From the IMG/VR virus record IMGVR_UViG_3300009709_000003, positions 32,001 through 96,000 of that record: DNA of 64,000 nt, one strand, 5' to 3'. Both the position numbers and the translations under genes were made by a program. Under the pieces are notes generated by a model. It had not been told where the DNA came from. It made no database searches and saw only the letters and a program-made list of their open reading frames with translations. Position 1 is the first letter of the stretch; every line of letters begins with the position of its first letter. This DNA comes from a virus. Positions 46,657 to 63,802 of the stretch are shown here, one piece after another.

Positions 46657-46672
46657 TGCAAAATCCGTACCA
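46657..46672 (-). promoter_or_regulatory. sigma54 promoter
   Basis: TGGTACGGATTTTGCA in an intergenic gap. Confidence 0.6.
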
Positions 46673-46960
46673 GGGGACCCACGACTTTTGGGCGCAAAAA
46701 TACATCTTACACTGGTATATACTATTTAACTAATCTGAGATCGTCAGGGTCAACAAACCACAAACCGGTAATGGCGATCTCCTGCTCAGGATCGCGTACC
46801 AGATAACCATCCACATCGAAAGCAGCAATCACCCAAATCTTGTACGGATTCGGTGCGTCTACGATGATAACCCTGTCACCAACTTTAAAGTCCATAACTT
46901 ACCTCTTTATATGAAAAGAAACGTAGGGGACCCAGAAAATCTATCGCAAAAATACATCTT
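46672..46960. repeat. Bipartite direct repeat AGGGGACCCA-N10/11-CGCAAAAATACATCTT (46672-46708 and 46925-46960)
   Basis: Two copies flanking the 46722-46895 ORF. Confidence 0.75.
46722..46895 (-). CDS. 57-aa SH3/KOW-like hypothetical protein
   Basis: Not in track; MDFKVGDRVIIVDAPNPYKIWVIAAFDVDGYLVRD...; GAGGT RBS. Confidence 0.6.
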   Translation of the reverse strand: MDFKVGDRVIIVDAPNPYKIWVIAAFDVDGYLVRDPEQEIAITGLWFVDPDDLRLVK

Positions 46961-47112
46961 CGTACAATTATAATATCTGACTTCGAAATATTATGCGGTG
47001 TCGCGCGATAAGCCCGCCAACGATTGTGGTTATATTTTCGGCTTACGCTTTGAAGGTGTTTGGGAGGCCCTGGAGTGGGCCTCCCTTACTTTTCCTTGAT
47101 TGGGTCTTCGTC

Positions 47113-47316
47113 TTACCCTTGCTCTGCCGTGAAAAAGGCGCGGCGTTGGGCGTCACGGCGGTCAAGTTCCGCGTTGCATCTGCGAACGAACGACCATGCT
47201 TGAGAGACCGTGTCGGCGTCGAGGTATCCGTCTGCCTCCTTAATGCTGTCCAGTTCCGCCCACTGGTTTTCGATTGCTTGCTCAAGTTGCTCGTCTGTCA
47301 TAAAGTTAAAGTCCAT
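47113..47316 (-). CDS. Small acidic early protein
   Basis: Own promoter-RBS cassette. Confidence 0.65.
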   Translation of the reverse strand: MDFNFMTDEQLEQAIENQWAELDSIKEADGYLDADTVSQAWSFVRRCNAELDRRDAQRRAFFTAEQG

Positions 47317-47341
47317 GAGAAACTCCTGTTAAGAGGGGAAT

Positions 47342-47357
47342 TGCAAGAGACGGGCCA
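47342..47357 (-). promoter_or_regulatory. sigma54 promoter (cassette family A)
   Basis: TGGCCCGTCTCTTGCA. Confidence 0.65.
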
Positions 47358-47359
47358 AA

Positions 47360-47521
47360 TTAGAAATTCAGGCGTGGCTGGGCATTGGGGTTGATGTTCT
47401 TCTTTTGGAGACGGCCATGAACGGTCGCCTTTGACTGGACCATCTGGGTGGAAGATGTAGGCGTAGGTGGGAGGATTTCGATTTTGCCGCCGCGTGAAAG
47501 AAATTGCTCGATCGTTTCCAT
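47360..47521 (-). CDS. 53-aa SutA-like RNA-polymerase-binding peptide
   Basis: Not in track; METIEQFLSRGGKIEILPP; AGGAG RBS; own sigma54 site. Confidence 0.6.
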   Translation of the reverse strand: METIEQFLSRGGKIEILPPTPTSSTQMVQSKATVHGRLQKKNINPNAQPRLNF

Positions 47522-47556
47522 GTGTACTCCTGAAAGAAAAAGGTTAAGAGGGAAAT

Positions 47557-47572
47557 TGCAAAGGCGATGCCA
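47557..47572 (-). promoter_or_regulatory. sigma54 promoter (cassette family A)
   Basis: TGGCATCGCCTTTGCA. Confidence 0.7.
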
Positions 47573-47578
47573 ATCACT

Positions 47579-47785
47579 TCACTCGTGGCTAGGCACATCG
47601 TCCTCGACGAAGTAGTTCTGGGTGTCTTCAATGACGTCGCCGCCATACCATTCAGCACTCCAGCCGCAAAGCTCCTTAAGCTGAGCTGGGGTGAGCTGCT
47701 TCGGGTCCTGGTCAACCGGGATTTCGACGTCTGCATACTCAACGGACTCGACGATTCTCGTGATTGTGATGGTTTTTGTTTCCAT
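47579..47785 (-). CDS. Small acidic early protein
   Basis: Own promoter-RBS cassette. Confidence 0.65.
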   Translation of the reverse strand: METKTITITRIVESVEYADVEIPVDQDPKQLTPAQLKELCGWSAEWYGGDVIEDTQNYFVEDDVPSHE

Positions 47786-47810
47786 GTAAAACTCCTGTTA
47801 AGAGGGGAAT

Positions 47811-47826
47811 TGCAAAGGCGATGCCA
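47811..47826 (-). promoter_or_regulatory. sigma54 promoter (cassette family A)
   Basis: TGGCATCGCCTTTGCA, identical to 47557-47572. Confidence 0.7.
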
Positions 47827-47827
47827 A

Positions 47828-47902
47828 TCACTCGACCTGGTCAGACAGGCGAGCAATAAGGACTATCAGTACCAAAAAGAAAAAGGCGACTGGTTGTTCC
47901 AT
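47828..47902 (-). CDS. 24-aa hydrophobic peptide MEQPVAFFFLVLIVLIARLSDQVE
   Basis: GGGAG RBS; fills the slot between two cassettes. Confidence 0.45.
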   Translation of the reverse strand: MEQPVAFFFLVLIVLIARLSDQVE

Positions 47903-47932
47903 AGCTGCTCCCTAAGTTTAAAACGGTGCCAG

Positions 47933-48076
47933 TCAATAGGCCAGCTCCACCCGCAGCCATTGGGTGGTCAGGACGCGGGCCAGCGAGCGGCGGGCCAAGG
48001 TCTTGGCTTCCTCAATGGAGCGAGCCTGGATGGAAAGGACGAACTTGTTGTCTATAAAGCAAGAGTAGGTGTGCAT
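47933..48076 (-). CDS. 47-aa early protein (near-leaderless)
   Basis: MHTYSCFIDNKF...; ATG about 14 nt after the sigma54 -12 element. Confidence 0.5.
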   Translation of the reverse strand: MHTYSCFIDNKFVLSIQARSIEEAKTLARRSLARVLTTQWLRVELAY

Positions 48077-48089
48077 ATTTAAGTAAAAT

Positions 48090-48157
48090 TGCAAGGAGGG
48101 TGCCAAATGTGGTAAGTAGGATAAGGTGGGATATACGGGGTTGGCACGGTCCCTGCA
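48090..48157. promoter_or_regulatory. Divergent pair of sigma54 promoters at the strand switch
   Basis: Minus 48090-48105 TGGCACCCTCCTTGCA; plus 48142-48157 TGGCACGGTCCCTGCA. Confidence 0.75.
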
Positions 48158-48192
48158 ATGAAAATCCCGTACCCTTTTTGCAGGAGCGCAGC

Positions 48193-48381
48193 ATGACGAC
48201 GGAACTCGCAAGAACTCTTAAGTTGGTATTCCAAAACGGTCGCTTTGTGGCCAAGAACGCTTTCGGGACTATCTGCTTTTTGTCCGAGGACCGCCGTCAG
48301 GTCCAGGTCTGGATTGAGGAGCAGATTCGCATGTCGAAACTGCAGGAGCCGGTCCGCAGCCTGGCATCGCTTTTGCAATAA
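48193..48381 (+). CDS. Small early protein
   Basis: AGGAG RBS before MTTELAR. Confidence 0.55.
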   Translation: MTTELARTLKLVFQNGRFVAKNAFGTICFLSEDRRQVQVWIEEQIRMSKLQEPVRSLASLLQ

Positions 48382-48432
48382 AGAAGGTATGGGGAGTTAA
48401 GCACAGGTCGCAAGACTGGCACGATTCCTGCA
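48362..48432 (+). promoter_or_regulatory. Tandem sigma54 promoters
   Basis: 48362-48377 TGGCATCGCTTTTGCA; 48417-48432 TGGCACGATTCCTGCA. Confidence 0.7.
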
Positions 48433-48466
48433 ATTTTAAAAGTAGACACCAAACAGGAGAAGACAG

Positions 48467-48712
48467 ATGGGTAAACTCGAAGCCATCGCTCGCCTTGAAG
48501 AGATCAAAGAAGAGATGCAAGCTCTGCTTTTAGAGGCCAGTCATCTGGTGCGACAATACGCCGGGGAGCGCTCCATCTCAGACAGAGCACATGCCTACTG
48601 GGTGCCACATATCGAACAGGCGCTTGAGACAACCGGTTACGACACCGACATGACGGGTACCATCAAGGAGATGGAAGAGTCAATCGAGGAAGAGCCAGCC
48701 GAAGCTGAATAA
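48467..48712 (+). CDS. Small acidic early protein
   Basis: AGGAG RBS, 81 aa. Confidence 0.65.
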   Translation: MGKLEAIARLEEIKEEMQALLLEASHLVRQYAGERSISDRAHAYWVPHIEQALETTGYDTDMTGTIKEMEESIEEEPAEAE

Positions 48713-48767
48713 CACGGCGAAACCCCGCAGGGGGTCCTAGGGTCAGACCCTAGCTGACGAGCCGAGT
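48712..48767 (+). ncRNA. Hammerhead ribozyme, type II
   Basis: CGGC-GAAA-CCCC GCAG GGGG-UC / CUAGGG UCAGA CCCUAG-CUGACGA-GCCG; predicted cleavage after 48736. Confidence 0.9.
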
Positions 48768-48796
48768 AACAAAGTAACATACAACAAGCGGACCAA

Positions 48797-49003
48797 GTGA
48801 AGACCTACATCGTGACGGTGACGACGACAGAGATCTACGAAATTGACGCACCTAACATCCTGATGGCAGAAATGCTGAAGGACGGCATCCTGGAAGCTGA
48901 CGATATCGCGATCGAGCGAATGGTGATGGTAGACCGGTCAGTTACAATATCGACGACAGCTAAAATCGCAGATGTGGCACCAGTTTTGCAACAGAAAAAG
49001 TAA
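48797..49003 (+). CDS. Small DpnD/PcfM-like protein
   Basis: MKTYIVTVTTTEIYEIDAP...A. Confidence 0.5.
   Translation: MKTYIVTVTTTEIYEIDAPNILMAEMLKDGILEADDIAIERMVMVDRSVTISTTAKIADVAPVLQQKK
48975..48990 (+). promoter_or_regulatory. sigma54 promoter (cassette family B)
   Basis: TGGCACCAGTTTTGCA. Confidence 0.7.
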
Positions 49004-49018
49004 CCACAGGAGAACAGC

Positions 49019-49516
49019 ATGAAGACGTTCATTGTAACACGCACCACGGTTGAGACTTTTATGATTCAAAGCGAAGACGCAGAAGGCGATATCGCGCACG
49101 GCAACATCGTCCTCGACAACGAAATGCCTACACATAGTGACACTGAAATTGTGTCGCGCGAAATGCTCGACGCGCCTGAGTACCGGGTTGTCATCATCGA
49201 AGAGAACATCGGTTGGAACGAGTTTAAGGGCGATTTTGAGAACGCGGAAGACGAAGCAGAAGCTAAGGAGGCATTCTACAAACACGGCGTTTACGGGTAT
49301 TCTGTCGAGATGCGCACTGTGGTTGACGGGCAATGGGACGACGTTGACAGTTGCTTTGGTTTCTTGGGCAACGAAAGGCAGTACATGTTGGACGTGGCAA
49401 TCGAACACATCCCAAAAGGTGTGGATGCCAAGATTTGGGAAAGTTTTTGCAATGCAGCTGAAGCTACTGAGACCAATGAAACGGTCACTGGTATTGGTGC
49501 GAGTGAAGCAGCCTAA
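49019..49516 (+). CDS. Acidic early protein
   Basis: 165 aa, AGGAG RBS; MKTFIVT start. Confidence 0.65.
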   Translation: MKTFIVTRTTVETFMIQSEDAEGDIAHGNIVLDNEMPTHSDTEIVSREMLDAPEYRVVIIEENIGWNEFKGDFENAEDEAEAKEAFYKHGVYGYSVEMRTVVDGQWDDVDSCFGFLGNERQYMLDVAIEHIPKGVDAKIWESFCNAAEATETNETVTGIGASEAA

Positions 49517-49518
49517 CA

Positions 49519-49568
49519 GGACGAAACCGCTTCGGCGGTCTGCTCGTAAAACGGGCACTGACGAGTCC
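49519..49568 (+). ncRNA. Hammerhead ribozyme, type II
   Basis: GGAC-GAAA-CCGC UUCG GCGG-UC / UGCUCGU AAA ACGGGCA-CUGACGA-GUCC; predicted cleavage after 49540. Confidence 0.92.
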
Positions 49569-49580
49569 AAGGAGAACGAC

Positions 49581-49889
49581 ATGGCAACGCAAGAGGAAAT
49601 CGAGGCAGTCCGCGACAATCTGGCAGACTATGGCCTCAGTGACGAGGTGATCTCGTTGGCGATCGACATATTTGGTGTTCATGCAGCGGATGCCCTTGAT
49701 GGCGGCGCTTATCAAGGCAAATACAATTCACTCAGCCACTATGCGTCAGAATACGTGGACGAAATTGGCCTACTCCATGGTTTGGATGACGTTATCGTCA
49801 AATATTTTGACTTTGAGTCGTATGGCCGCGATTTGGTGTCAGGTGGTGATGTAGTATACGAGAATGGCCACGTTTTTATTGCCAATTAA
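49581..49889 (+). CDS. ardA: ArdA-like antirestriction protein (C-terminal domains)
   Basis: AYQGKYNS..YA.EYVDE.G......KYFDFESYGRDL...D....GHVF; AAGGAG RBS. Confidence 0.75.
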   Translation: MATQEEIEAVRDNLADYGLSDEVISLAIDIFGVHAADALDGGAYQGKYNSLSHYASEYVDEIGLLHGLDDVIVKYFDFESYGRDLVSGGDVVYENGHVFIAN

Positions 49890-49897
49890 AACAAGCT

Positions 49898-49913
49898 TGG
49901 CACCAGTTTTGCA
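49898..49913 (+). promoter_or_regulatory. sigma54 promoter (cassette family B)
   Basis: TGGCACCAGTTTTGCA, identical to 48975-48990. Confidence 0.7.
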
Positions 49914-49939
49914 AACAGAAAAGTAACACGGGGGACAAC

Positions 49940-50203
49940 GTGAAAAAGAACGCAGCGCAACAAGCCTTGACCAACGCAGTGAACCGCGCCATCGCAAATG
50001 GAGCACCAGTGTACGAGAATCAACCCGTTGAGACGCCAAAACTCAAAACCTTTATCGTAACGCAGACCATAGTAAAGACCTTTGAAGTGCAAGAAGACGA
50101 CGCAGATAAAGCCAAAAGTGCGGTATTGACGTCCCGTTTTATTACTGGGACACAGACTGTAAACACTGTCGTAACAGAGAAGCTCGAAGGTGGCGTAATA
50201 TGA
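49940..50203 (+). CDS. Small early protein
   Basis: Contains KTFIVTQT..KTFEVQ..DA module. Confidence 0.55.
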   Translation: MKKNAAQQALTNAVNRAIANGAPVYENQPVETPKLKTFIVTQTIVKTFEVQEDDADKAKSAVLTSRFITGTQTVNTVVTEKLEGGVI

Positions 50204-50381
50204 ACATCCGAATTGGAGTTTACGTTAGTCTTTATGTGGGTCTTGGCGAACAATTCATGGACCAAGTACATACAGACTGGGCAGTAGTCCAACCTGGATT
50301 CTTTAAGAAAGAACTCCAGTAAACAAACACCTTAACCCGAAAGCCCGCCTAGTGCGGGCATCGGCATTAAGAGAGGGTAAC

Positions 50382-51743
50382 ATGCGATTTAAGGTAGGGC
50401 AAGTCATTCGTAACCTTGATTCTGTCATCCCTCAATTTAAATGGCGGATTGATAGAGTTACAGAAAACGGGTACGTAGTGACGCCCCTGATTTATAAGGA
50501 CATCTACAAAGAACGTTTTCTCTCTGCTCACGACAGATTGGTTTTGGCAGAAGGGAATGGAGACAACAAGTGACAACACTTAAACGGAAATTCCCGCGCC
50601 GGGTGTACGGTAAGCGTGAACACAACTTGATGTTGCGACAACAGGCACTCATGCCACTGACATACAAGCCTTTCGAGCAAGCGATATATAATCAAGGCTG
50701 GCTAGATGCGAAGACGGCCATAGTGGAACAAGAATTGCAGGACATTTCAAACATGTTCACTGACCTGGAAAAGGACAACAAGCAATGAATCCAATTAAAA
50801 ATTACAGTGTAACCTGCAACTGCAAGTGTAACTGCCCAAAGTGTAACAAGAGAAAGTAACATGGAAGACAAACAAGTGAACCATAAAACCCGCAAATTGA
50901 GTGACGAGTTGGAGAGAACCCCAGAATGGGGAGTGTCCACCGGATTCGAAATTCGTACTATTGAAGCCATCCGCAACTTGGAATTTAACCTGCATGAGGC
51001 GCAAAAGGCCGCTGAAGATGCACACTTTTTGCTGACAGCAGAGGTTAAACGAGCAGAATCCGCTGAAGCCCGCATTAAAGAACTAGAGTCCACGTGTATT
51101 AAAGAATTTGAAAAGGGATACGACCAGGCCCTGTCTGAAGTTGGTGTCAAATGGGACGGGAACAAATTTGTAAAGAAAAATGGGGAGTCACATGAGTAAG
51201 TCAAAACTGCTTGATAGTAAACAGAAGATCATCAACTACGTGCAAAAACGACGTGATCGTATTGGTGAGGAACGAGATCTAATAACGAGGTTTGCCGAAG
51301 TACGTAAGTTGGAAGAACAAGCCAAAATAGCACGTCGAGCCTATGAACAACGGTGTGAGGCTACACGACCAGAATTCAATGCTGCTTGGGACCGTGTCAG
51401 TATGGACGCCAAGAAATATTTGAATGCCTTGGTAGCCGGCACGCCCGTAACAGTGGATACGGATGCAGATGAGATGCGGGACAGACTTGTCAAACCTACC
51501 CTTGGTGTGGTAGAATAATCCCATAAATTTCAACTTGGAGGGCACTTGGCGGACAAAGAGTCTGACACACTGCAGTACACCAGCGCAGAGGAGATTCATT
51601 CAGACCTACAAGAAATTAGAAGGAAAATCCAGGAGATCACAGCTAAGCGGCGAGCATTTTTATCCTCGTACCTAAACAAGATTTTTACATCTAACTTAGA
51701 GGAAGAGAAAAATGAAACACAATCCATTCATAGACGCCATTAA
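50382..51743 (+). other. Run of small hypothetical genes (50382-50573, 50570-50788, 50861-51199, 51192-51518, 51546-51743)
   Basis: Coupled ORFs with RBSs. Confidence 0.55.
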
Positions 51744-52836: not shown

Positions 52837-52852
52837 TGGCATAGTCATTGCA
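52837..52852 (+). promoter_or_regulatory. sigma54 promoter
   Basis: TGGCATAGTCATTGCA upstream of the helicase. Confidence 0.65.
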
Positions 52853-63568: not shown

Positions 63569-63802
63569 ATGAATTTGAAACTGGTCGTTAACAACAAGGA
63601 CGAAACACTCCCGACTGTCCATGAATTATGGAAGGAAGGTCGGAGTAACTATTGGGGTAGAAGCCCTAAATTGTTATGTCGCATCATCGGATGTTCGCCT
63701 GGCAGTGGTGGTATTCGTAAAGTTAGTTGTATGTCTCTATGGGGAGATTTGTTTGAGTGCAAGCGGTGTTGCCGCATTATCGCAGTAGATGCGTGGGATT
63801 AA
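63569..63802 (+). CDS. Small Cys-rich hypothetical protein
   Basis: 77 aa. Confidence 0.4.
   Translation: MNLKLVVNNKDETLPTVHELWKEGRSNYWGRSPKLLCRIIGCSPGSGGIRKVSCMSLWGDLFECKRCCRIIAVDAWD

What the first reader, a model, noticed from the sequence alone, without database searches (positions are those of the whole stretch)
48712..48767. Type II hammerhead ribozyme directly after an early gene's stop codon
Seen: complete core (GAAA, GUC cleavage triplet, CUGACGA) with paired stems I and III and open stem II (CGGC/GCCG), filling the gap between 48467-48712 and 48797. Known: this is the hammerhead consensus, and cleavage leaves a 5'-OH. Inference: self-processing of the polycistronic early mRNA gives the downstream cistron a 5'-OH end with a hairpin, which should resist 5'-monophosphate-dependent decay.
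Basis: partly seen in the sequence, partly recalled or inferred. Interest (0 to 1): 0.8.

Follow-up and report, generated by a model that had tools for sequence, protein, structure and literature searches.

The report
Two hammerhead ribozymes between phage genes
The flagged sequence is a genuine-looking self-cutting RNA (a type II hammerhead ribozyme), one of two between small genes of a 160-kb uncultivated phage; such ribozymes between phage genes, including just upstream of anti-restriction (ardA) genes, were described in 2011, so this is an ordinary new example.

Summary
Window 48715-48764 (+) holds every conserved hammerhead core nucleotide, with closed stems I and III and an open 4-bp stem II. 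Cleavage is predicted after C48736.

- **Second copy:** a hammerhead with different helix sequences lies at 49519-49568, just after the next-but-one gene and just before the ribosome-binding site of an ArdA-like gene. The two copies differ at 8 of 15 base pairs and pairing is kept at all of them.
- **Database scores:** Rfam's type II model scores both below its threshold (26.6 and 23.1 bits; cut-off 37).
- **Own model:** a model built from 100 compact type II hammerheads in other IMG/VR viral contigs scores them at 61.7 and 64.2 bits and finds nothing else in the genome.
- **Class features:** both carry the class's extra conserved positions (an A on each side of stem II, a U opening loop I) and its usual position at the upstream stop codon.

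They most likely cut the transcript between cistrons. Perreault et al. (2011) already described hammerhead arrays flanking phage genes, including ardA. This scan has also reported such arrays on other DNA. This is a new member of a known kind.

The parts
48417..48432 (+). Sigma-54-like -24/-12 promoter motif (TGGCAC-N5-CTGCA) upstream of gene A; probable start of the first two-gene unit
   Evidence: The motif is enriched in the window (33 matches against 17.7 expected; 21 against 5.7 expected) and aligns with the copies before genes C and E. It was not tested functionally.
48467..48712 (+). Gene A, 81 aa, no known family; its TAA stop is at 48710-48712
   Evidence: ORF list; no Pfam or PHROG match.
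48714..48714 (+). Class-conserved A directly 5' of stem II
   Evidence: A at this position in 110 of 112 compact type II hammerheads from IMG/VR.
48715..48764 (+). Hammerhead 1 (type II). Stem II 48715-48718 with 48761-48764; GAAA 48719-48722; stem III hairpin 48723-48734; U16.1 C17 at 48735-48736 with predicted cleavage after 48736; stem-loop I 48737-48753; CUGACGA 48754-48760
   Evidence: Sequence, fold, descriptor, class model R1 at 61.7 bits, Rfam RF02276 at 26.6 bits.
48797..49003 (+). Gene B, 68 aa, GTG start. Its N-terminus MKTYIVT resembles that of gene C, which supports the start
   Evidence: ORF translations; no family match.
48975..48990 (+). Sigma-54-like -24/-12 motif (TGGCACCAGTTTTGCA) at the end of gene B, upstream of gene C
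   Evidence: Exact match, identical to the 16-mer at 49898.
49019..49516 (+). Gene C, 165 aa, an orphan; its TAA stop is at 49514-49516
   Evidence: Only itself was found among 5.8 billion proteins; no family match.
49519..49568 (+). Hammerhead 2 (type II): GGAC GAAA [CCGC-UUCG-GCGG] UC| [UGCUCGU-AAA-ACGGGCA] CUGACGA GUCC; predicted cleavage after C49540
   Evidence: Descriptor, sequence, class model R1 at 64.2 bits, Rfam RF02276 at 23.1 bits.
49569..49889 (+). AAGGAG ribosome-binding site (49569-49574) abutting hammerhead 2, then gene D (ATG 49581, 102 aa), an ArdA-like anti-restriction protein
   Evidence: Pfam PF07275 ArdA at 3.5e-12, profile positions 91-154 of 155; PHROG anti-restriction protein at 8.5e-13.
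49898..49913 (+). Sigma-54-like -24/-12 motif after gene D, upstream of gene E (49940)

Best explanation
Window 48715-48764 and 49519-49568 are two active type II hammerhead ribozymes of a compact class lacking a pseudoknot that is common in phage genomes. Each sits in the middle of a two-gene unit (promoter-like motif, gene, hammerhead, gene). It begins 2 nt after the stop codon of the first gene and ends 16-32 nt before the start of the second. Once both strands of stem II are transcribed, the RNA folds into the three-way junction and cleaves itself after C17 (48736 and 49540). The upstream cistron keeps its stop codon and ends in the GC-rich stem III hairpin with a 2',3'-cyclic phosphate. 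The downstream cistron (gene B, or the ArdA-like gene D) starts with a 5'-OH flush against the stem I hairpin. The result is separate single-gene messages whose stability and translation are uncoupled. Shown here: the motif, its duplication with compensatory changes, its class membership and its position. Inferred: cleavage in vivo, and any effect on mRNA stability.
For: 1. The core and three helices are complete in both copies, and the hammerhead fold is the minimum-free-energy structure for HH1.
2. There are two hits in the genome against 0.017 expected per shuffled genome. Both are on the coding strand, 804 nt apart, and both are intergenic.
3. HH1 and HH2 differ at 8 of 15 helix pairs and all remain paired, while all core nucleotides, the 5' AACA and the flanking As are identical.
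4. Model R1, built from 100 compact type II hammerheads of other viral contigs, gives 64.2 and 61.7 bits, with no other hit in 160 kb. On 140 distinct sequences of that family, 98% of cells are paired and 12 of 15 pairs show double changes.
5. Features that were in neither my descriptor nor the retrieval pattern are present in both copies: A 5' of stem II (110/112 in the class), A 3' of it (79/112), and U opening loop I (90/90).
6. In 99 of 126 class copies the upstream ORF's stop codon ends 3-8 nt before GAAA, as it does here at 6 nt.
7. Perreault et al. 2011 (PMC3088659) showed clustered hammerheads flanking genes in prophages. These cleaved in vitro and in vivo. They include an A. tumefaciens trio flanking ardA, and ardA lies directly downstream of a hammerhead in Legionella. 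HH2 here directly precedes an ArdA-like gene.
Against: There is no experimental cleavage data for these sequences. Rfam RF02276 scores both copies below its gathering threshold. Neither copy has the loop I / 3'-tail pseudoknot that Perreault et al. found necessary for fast cleavage at 0.5 mM Mg2+ in the type II ribozymes they tested. The tertiary contact proposed instead (loop I U with the flanking A) is inferred only from conservation. In a 221-nt context the minimum-free-energy fold of HH2 is replaced by pairing of stem III with upstream coding sequence. No orthologous locus exists to show conservation at this site: the nearest relative by portal protein has no hammerhead and no gene C or D, and gene C is an orphan.
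Confidence: 0.8

Rival explanations
1. The hammerhead folds are real and under selection, but they cleave slowly or not at all in the cell. The element would act mainly through its two stable hairpins, for example as a barrier to exonucleases or a spacer that insulates translation of neighbouring cistrons, not through self-cleavage.
For: There is no loop I / tail pseudoknot. Loss of the pseudoknot cut activity more than 100-fold in the type II ribozymes tested by Perreault et al.. An alternative fold competes with HH2 in long context.
Against: All catalytic core nucleotides are strictly kept in both copies and in more than 100 class members while the helices vary freely. Hairpins alone would not need that. 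The conserved A flanks and loop I U suggest a different tertiary contact. Perreault et al. note that many hammerheads lack the known contacts.
Confidence: 0.1
2. The ribozymes are active but their purpose is not to stabilise the downstream message. Cleavage may instead set different lifetimes for the two halves (possibly destabilising one), stop translational coupling, or release a segment with 5'-OH and cyclic-phosphate ends (B-C, 48737-49540) for ligation into a circular or spliced RNA.
For: A 5'-OH created by the glmS ribozyme is an entry point for RNase J1 in B. subtilis (PMC3997798). Perreault et al. raised spliced or circular products as a possibility. The two hammerheads bracket genes B and C. 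In some IMG/VR arrays all copies share one stem II sequence (L010, L028, L086, L015), which would let the ends of an excised segment pair.
Against: Perreault et al. looked for spliced or circular products and found none. In this window the stem II strands that would have to pair (GCCG from HH1 with GGAC from HH2) are not complementary. The 5' hairpin flush with the new end is the arrangement known to protect mRNAs (PMC6206723).
Confidence: 0.08
3. The match is a chance resemblance to the hammerhead consensus in a GC-rich intergenic hairpin pair and has no ribozyme function.
For: Rfam gathering threshold not reached. A scan of very many windows will throw up some chance matches.
Against: A second copy lies 804 nt away with compensatory changes. 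The expectation is 0.017 per genome. The class model gives 62-64 bits. Class-specific flank and loop positions and the stop-codon placement are met in both copies.
Confidence: 0.02

Closest known systems
Clustered type II hammerhead ribozymes flanking genes in prophages and phages (Perreault et al. 2011, PLoS Comput Biol, PMC3088659), including the A. tumefaciens trio around ardA and the Legionella hammerhead directly upstream of ardA
   Same: Same ribozyme class and permutation (stems I and III closed, stem II open). Same intergenic position on the coding strand. There are multiple copies that flank single genes or short blocks. One copy lies directly upstream of an ArdA-family gene.
   Different: The copies here lack the loop I / 3'-tail pseudoknot of the published type II consensus. 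They have a 4-bp stem II flanked by conserved As and a 17-nt stem-loop I. The host is unknown, and nothing has been tested experimentally.
Rfam RF02276 Hammerhead_II (clan CL00010)
   Same: The full model aligns end to end with the core, stem III and stem I.
   Different: Scores are 26.6 and 23.1 bits against a gathering score of 37. The model recognises the longer pseudoknotted form (18 hits in L042, L086, L100) but none of the 24 compact copies in L010, L027, L028, L032 and L057.
Synthetic ribozyme insulators such as RiboJ (sTRSV hammerhead plus hairpin; Clifton et al. 2018, PMC6206723)
   Same: Self-cleavage leaves a defined 5'-OH end followed by a hairpin upstream of a ribosome-binding site. 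This raised transcript abundance about twofold in E. coli.
   Different: RiboJ is an engineered type III hammerhead placed after a promoter. The elements here are natural type II copies placed between cistrons directly after a stop codon.
glmS ribozyme of Bacillus subtilis
   Same: Self-cleavage in an mRNA leader leaves a 5'-OH on the coding fragment (PMC3997798).
   Different: It is a different ribozyme class and depends on a metabolite.

Membership tests
Hammerhead ribozyme (Rfam clan CL00010) | Conserved catalytic core: C3 U4 G5 A6 N7 G8 A9, G12 A13 A14, A15.1-U16.1, H17 (not G), G10.1-C11.1 | tested here: met
   All positions are present in HH1 (48715-48764) and HH2 (49519-49568), read from the sequence and enforced by the descriptor.
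Hammerhead ribozyme (Rfam clan CL00010) | Three helices radiating from the core, supported by covariation | tested here: met
   The minimum-free-energy fold is the junction. HH1 and HH2 differ at 8 of 15 pairs with pairing kept. On class alignment A2, 98% of cells are paired and 12 of 15 pairs have double changes; shifted-partner controls reach only 29-44%. That alignment is fitted to the model.
Type II hammerhead (Perreault et al. 2011; Rfam RF02276) | Circular permutation with stems I and III closed by loops and stem II open, in the order GAAA, UH, CUGANGA | tested here: met
Type II hammerhead (Perreault et al. 2011; Rfam RF02276) | Score at or above the curated Rfam gathering threshold (37 bits) | tested here: not met
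   26.6 bits and 23.1 bits. This is a threshold of one model, not a biochemical criterion. The same model misses all 24 compact copies in five IMG/VR loci.
Type II hammerhead (Perreault et al. 2011; Rfam RF02276) | Pseudoknot of 4 or more bp between loop I and the tail 3' of stem II (present in a majority of type II, not in all) | tested here: not met
   No complementarity exists between loop I (UCAGA, UAAAA) and the 3' tails. No Watson-Crick covariation was found between loop I and the flanks in 90 class members. HH1 loop UCAG could pair with CUGA at 48705-48708 in the 5' tail, but HH2 has no equivalent.
Compact type II class defined here (model R1) | 4-bp stem II flanked by A on both sides; 17-nt stem-loop I with U as the first loop base; upstream stop codon within a few nt | tested here: met
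   Both copies score 61.7 and 64.2 bits with R1. Both have A at -5, A at +5, U in loop I and a stop codon ending 6 nt before GAAA.
Hammerhead ribozyme (Rfam clan CL00010) | Mg2+-dependent self-cleavage 3' of position 17, giving 2',3'-cyclic phosphate and 5'-OH ends | not testable with these tools
   This needs in vitro transcription or end-specific RNA-seq.

The most novel reading that the evidence does not exclude
The compact type II hammerheads would form a distinct design that current RNA family models do not capture. Their features are a 4-bp stem II flanked by near-invariant As, a U-N-A-N-G loop I, no pseudoknot, and the upstream stop codon embedded in or abutting the 5' strand of stem II. 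In this design a ribosome terminating at the stop codon melts stem II, so that translation termination gates ribozyme folding or product release. In this phage the design would be used in regular promoter-gene-ribozyme-gene units that give an anti-restriction mRNA its own protected 5' end.
Probability: 0.12. Interest if true: 0.5.

Novelty: new member of a known kind. Interest (0 to 1): 0.27.

Why it matters
What hammerheads do in bacteria and phages is still an open question (Weinberg et al. 2019, PMC6765202). This locus adds a clean example in a complete 160-kb phage genome. It has two sequence-distinct copies, each splitting a two-gene unit, and one copy lies directly in front of an ArdA-like anti-restriction gene. 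That repeats the ardA association noted in 2011.

Two points go beyond this window:

- **Rfam gap:** the Rfam type II model misses this compact class at its curated threshold, so routine annotation undercounts it.
- **Stop-codon placement:** the class shows a very regular placement at the upstream stop codon, with conserved As flanking stem II, which could be tested as a tertiary contact.

Neither point changes the accepted picture.

Tried and rejected
1. **Rfam scans:** at gathering thresholds over the window and the rest of the genome, and at E-value thresholds over the whole window, Rfam found no ribozyme. Only short-region scans showed the sub-threshold RF02276 matches. A search of the genome with RF02276 through the genome search found nothing.
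2. **Phage GenBank records:** blastn of 47500-50500 found no match.
3. **Orthologous loci:**
   - Genes C and A and the helicase gave no usable relatives in IMG/VR. The one partial hit, L007, has no hammerhead.
   - Gene C has no homologue among 5.8 billion proteins.
   - The closest phage by portal protein (L127, 43% identity, 183 kb) has no R1 hit and no gene C or D.
   - So conservation at this exact site could not be tested.
4. **More copies in the genome:** a relaxed descriptor gave only an overlapping alternative of HH2. R1 gave only a 11.8-bit non-hit at 63594.
5. **Pseudoknot or Watson-Crick tertiary pairing between loop I and the flanks:** none was found in the window or by mutual information over 90 class members.
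6. **Circularisation of the excised B-C segment through a chimeric hammerhead:** rejected here because the relevant stem II strands are not complementary. Perreault et al. did not detect such products.
7. **Terminator reading:** neither hairpin is followed by a U run, and the consensus scan lists none at these sites.
8. **Perreault supplementary files:** a search for compact-class sequences found nothing in the files held as text. So I cannot say whether this subclass was in their alignments.

Full report
**1. What is in the sequence**

Read from the window, positions 48715-48764 on the + strand are:

CGGC GAAA CCCC-GCAG-GGGG U C | CUAGGGU-CAG-ACCCUAG CUGACGA GCCG

In standard hammerhead numbering this gives:
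- C3 U4 G5 A6 C7 G8 A9 at 48754-48760, and G12 A13 A14 at 48719-48721.
- The A15.1-U16.1 pair (48722 with 48735).
- C17 at 48736, the cleavage site.
- The G10.1-C11.1 pair (48761 with 48718).
- Stem III of 4 G-C pairs with a GCAG loop, and stem I of 6-7 pairs.
- A 4-bp stem II formed by the two outer strands.

The minimum-free-energy fold of 48705-48775 is exactly this junction (-23.9 kcal/mol, z = -2.5). It survives in a 221-nt context. The TAA of ORF 48467-48712 ends 2 nt before stem II. The next gene starts with GTG at 48797.

**2. A second copy**

I wrote a descriptor requiring GAAA, a closed stem III, UH, a closed stem I, CUGANGA and an open stem II. Run on both strands of the whole 160,708-bp genome, it returns two hits. 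The genome is an IMG/VR virus record with direct terminal repeats; the window is bases 32001-96000. One hit is the flagged site. The other is at window 49519-49568:

GGAC GAAA CCGC-UUCG-GCGG U C | UGCUCGU-AAA-ACGGGCA CUGACGA GUCC

- It starts 2 nt after the TAA of ORF 49019-49516.
- It is followed at once by AAGGAG and then by an ATG at 49581.
- Sixty Markov-shuffled genomes gave 0.017 strict hits per genome.
- The two copies share every core nucleotide, the 5' flank AACA and an A on each side of stem II.
- They differ at 8 of 15 helix pairs (2 in stem II, 1 in stem III, 5 in stem I), and all 8 remain paired.

**3. Database models**

- Rfam finds nothing at gathering thresholds in the window or in the rest of the genome. 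It also finds nothing in an E-value scan of the whole window.
- On 301-nt stretches RF02276 (Hammerhead_II) aligns end to end. It scores 26.6 bits for HH1 and 23.1 bits for HH2, below the cut-off of 37.

**4. Relatives elsewhere**

In those loci the descriptor finds 216 type II hammerheads, often in arrays of up to 9. They fall into two forms:
- One form has a 3-bp stem II and a 21-23-nt stem-loop I.
- The other is compact, with a 4-bp stem II and a 17-18-nt stem-loop I. Both window copies are of this form.

I built model R1 from 100 compact copies, none from this genome.
- It scores HH2 at 64.2 bits and HH1 at 61.7 bits (E about 1e-15 to 1e-14).
- It finds nothing else in the 160 kb.
- On 140 distinct family members, 98% of cells are paired and 12 of 15 pairs show double changes. 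Shifted-partner controls reach 29-44%. That alignment is fitted to the model.

Three features that were not part of the pattern or the descriptor are conserved in the compact class, and both window copies have them:
- A immediately 5' of stem II (110/112).
- A immediately 3' of stem II (79/112).
- U as the first base of loop I (90/90).

Rfam at its gathering threshold recognises the longer form (18 hits in L042, L086, L100). It recognises none of the 24 compact copies in L010, L027, L028, L032 and L057. The sub-threshold Rfam scores therefore reflect the model, not a defect of these copies. A narrower pattern also hits 92 species-representative bacterial genomes from many phyla, presumably in prophages.

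**5. Position relative to genes**

- In 99 of 126 compact copies, an ORF of at least 40 codons ends 3-8 nt before GAAA.
- So the stop codon abuts or overlaps the 5' strand of stem II.
- The next ORF usually starts 10-40 nt after the core. The two window copies follow this rule.
- The conserved A at -5 stays A wherever the stop codon falls, so it is a constraint on the RNA, not a by-product of stop codons.

**6. Gene context in the window**

- Upstream of about 47.8 kb the genes run on the - strand. They include portal, terminase and head protease genes.
- From 48467 a + strand cluster of small genes begins. It runs into a DNA helicase at 52848.
- Genes A (81 aa), B (68 aa) and C (165 aa) match no family, and gene C is an orphan.
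- Gene D (49581-49889, 102 aa), directly after HH2, matches ArdA (PF07275, 3.5e-12; PHROG anti-restriction, 8.5e-13). The match covers only the C-terminal part of the profile.

I followed a lead from first-stage notes on this genome and checked the sigma-54-like -24/-12 motif TGGCAC-N5-TTGCA.
- It is enriched: 33 loose matches against 17.7 expected, and 21 against 5.7 for the stricter form with one mismatch.
- Copies lie just upstream of genes A (48417), C (48975) and E (49898), within a longer shared sequence.
- The layout is therefore promoter-like motif, gene A, HH1, gene B, then motif, gene C, HH2, gene D, then motif, gene E.
- No terminator-like site separates these units.

**7. Most likely mechanism**

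Each ribozyme cleaves the transcript after C17.
- The upstream fragment keeps its stop codon. It ends in the stem III hairpin plus UC with a 2',3'-cyclic phosphate.
- The downstream fragment begins with a 5'-OH at the first base of the stem I hairpin.
- In HH2 the ribosome-binding site lies directly after the released stem II strand.

That the motif, the copies and the layout are real is shown here. That they cleave in vivo is inferred. The inference rests on the strict conservation of the catalytic core and on the experimental record for similar clustered prophage hammerheads. Perreault et al. 2011 (PMC3088659) reported cleavage in vitro for three arrays and in vivo for the A. tumefaciens array flanking ardA.

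- In E. coli-like hosts, RiboJ raised transcript abundance about twofold, possibly through its terminal hairpin (PMC6206723).
- It cannot be generalised. In B. subtilis a ribozyme-made 5'-OH is an entry site for RNase J1 (PMC3997798).
- The host of this phage is unknown.

**8. Weak points**

- Neither copy has the loop I / 3'-tail pseudoknot that most published type II hammerheads use. Removing that pseudoknot cut rates more than 100-fold.
- The class shows no Watson-Crick covariation between loop I and the flanks.
- The conserved loop I U and flanking As suggest a non-canonical contact. Perreault et al. say many hammerheads lack the known contacts. The contact remains inference.
- HH2's fold is out-competed in a 221-nt minimum-free-energy prediction by pairing with upstream coding sequence. 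In the cell that sequence would be occupied by ribosomes.
- No orthologous site exists for comparison.

**9. Comparison with what is known, and novelty**

- Type II hammerheads were described in 2011, along with clusters flanking single genes in prophages. The same paper proposed that they process long phage transcripts into single-gene mRNAs.
- It also noted a link to ardA (PMC3088659).
- A 2019 review still lists the function as unresolved (PMC6765202).
- Earlier reports of this scan describe the same kind of array on other DNA.
- This locus is therefore a new member of a known kind.

The extras are modest additions, not a new kind of element: a compact class missed by Rfam, regular stop-codon placement, conserved flanking As, and alternating promoter and ribozyme junctions. 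A census of 150 genes directly downstream of IMG/VR hammerheads shows mostly small unknown proteins. DUF932 appears five times. ArdA appears only twice, and one of the two is the window's own. The ardA link is therefore recurrent but not dominant.

**10. Verdict**

Interest is low to moderate.

Noticed in passing
window 46657-49913, also 33715, 52837, 53901, 58420, 62992: Sigma-54-like -24/-12 motifs (TGGCAC-N5-TTGCA) are enriched (21 against 5.7 expected with one mismatch) and oriented with the genes on both sides of the strand switch near 48.1 kb. The copies before genes A, C and E share a longer conserved sequence (…TTGCAA…AAAAGTAAC…). This suggests a phage regulon that uses host sigma-54.
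   Followed up: partly
window 48797-48860, 49019-49080, 50040-50100: Genes B and C start with near-identical N-termini (MKTYIVTVTTTEIYEI and MKTFIVTRTTVETFMI). Gene E carries the same motif internally (LKTFIVTQTIVKTFEV). This looks like a small paralogous family of unknown function in the ribozyme-containing cluster.
   Followed up: no
window 49581-49889: The ArdA-like protein is only 102 aa and matches only positions 91-154 of the 155-position Pfam profile. It is a truncated or minimal ArdA form. The preceding orphan gene C (165 aa) shows no ArdA similarity.
   Followed up: partly
L010, L027, L028, L032, L057 (IMG/VR loci): Rfam RF02276 at its gathering threshold detects none of the 24 compact type II hammerheads in these loci, while it detects 18 of the longer pseudoknotted form in L042, L086 and L100. 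This is an annotation gap for a common phage ribozyme class.
   Followed up: yes
L010, L015, L028, L086 (IMG/VR loci): In some arrays every hammerhead shares the same stem II sequence (for example GGAC/GUCC six times in L010) while stems I and III vary. The two ends of an excised gene segment could then pair and rebuild a nicked hammerhead. Other arrays (L027, L032, L057) and this window do not show this.
   Followed up: partly
IMG/VR loci L008-L125, 126 compact copies: The stop codon of the upstream ORF ends 3-8 nt before GAAA in 99 of 126 copies. Frequently the stop is the UAG or UAA that contains the conserved A 5' of stem II. A terminating ribosome would therefore cover stem II.
   Followed up: partly
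window 47113-47316 (-) and 47579-47785 (-): Two small, plausible-looking acidic proteins (67 and 68 aa) are encoded on the - strand, each preceded by a -24/-12 motif. The overlapping + strand ORFs listed there look spurious.
   Followed up: no
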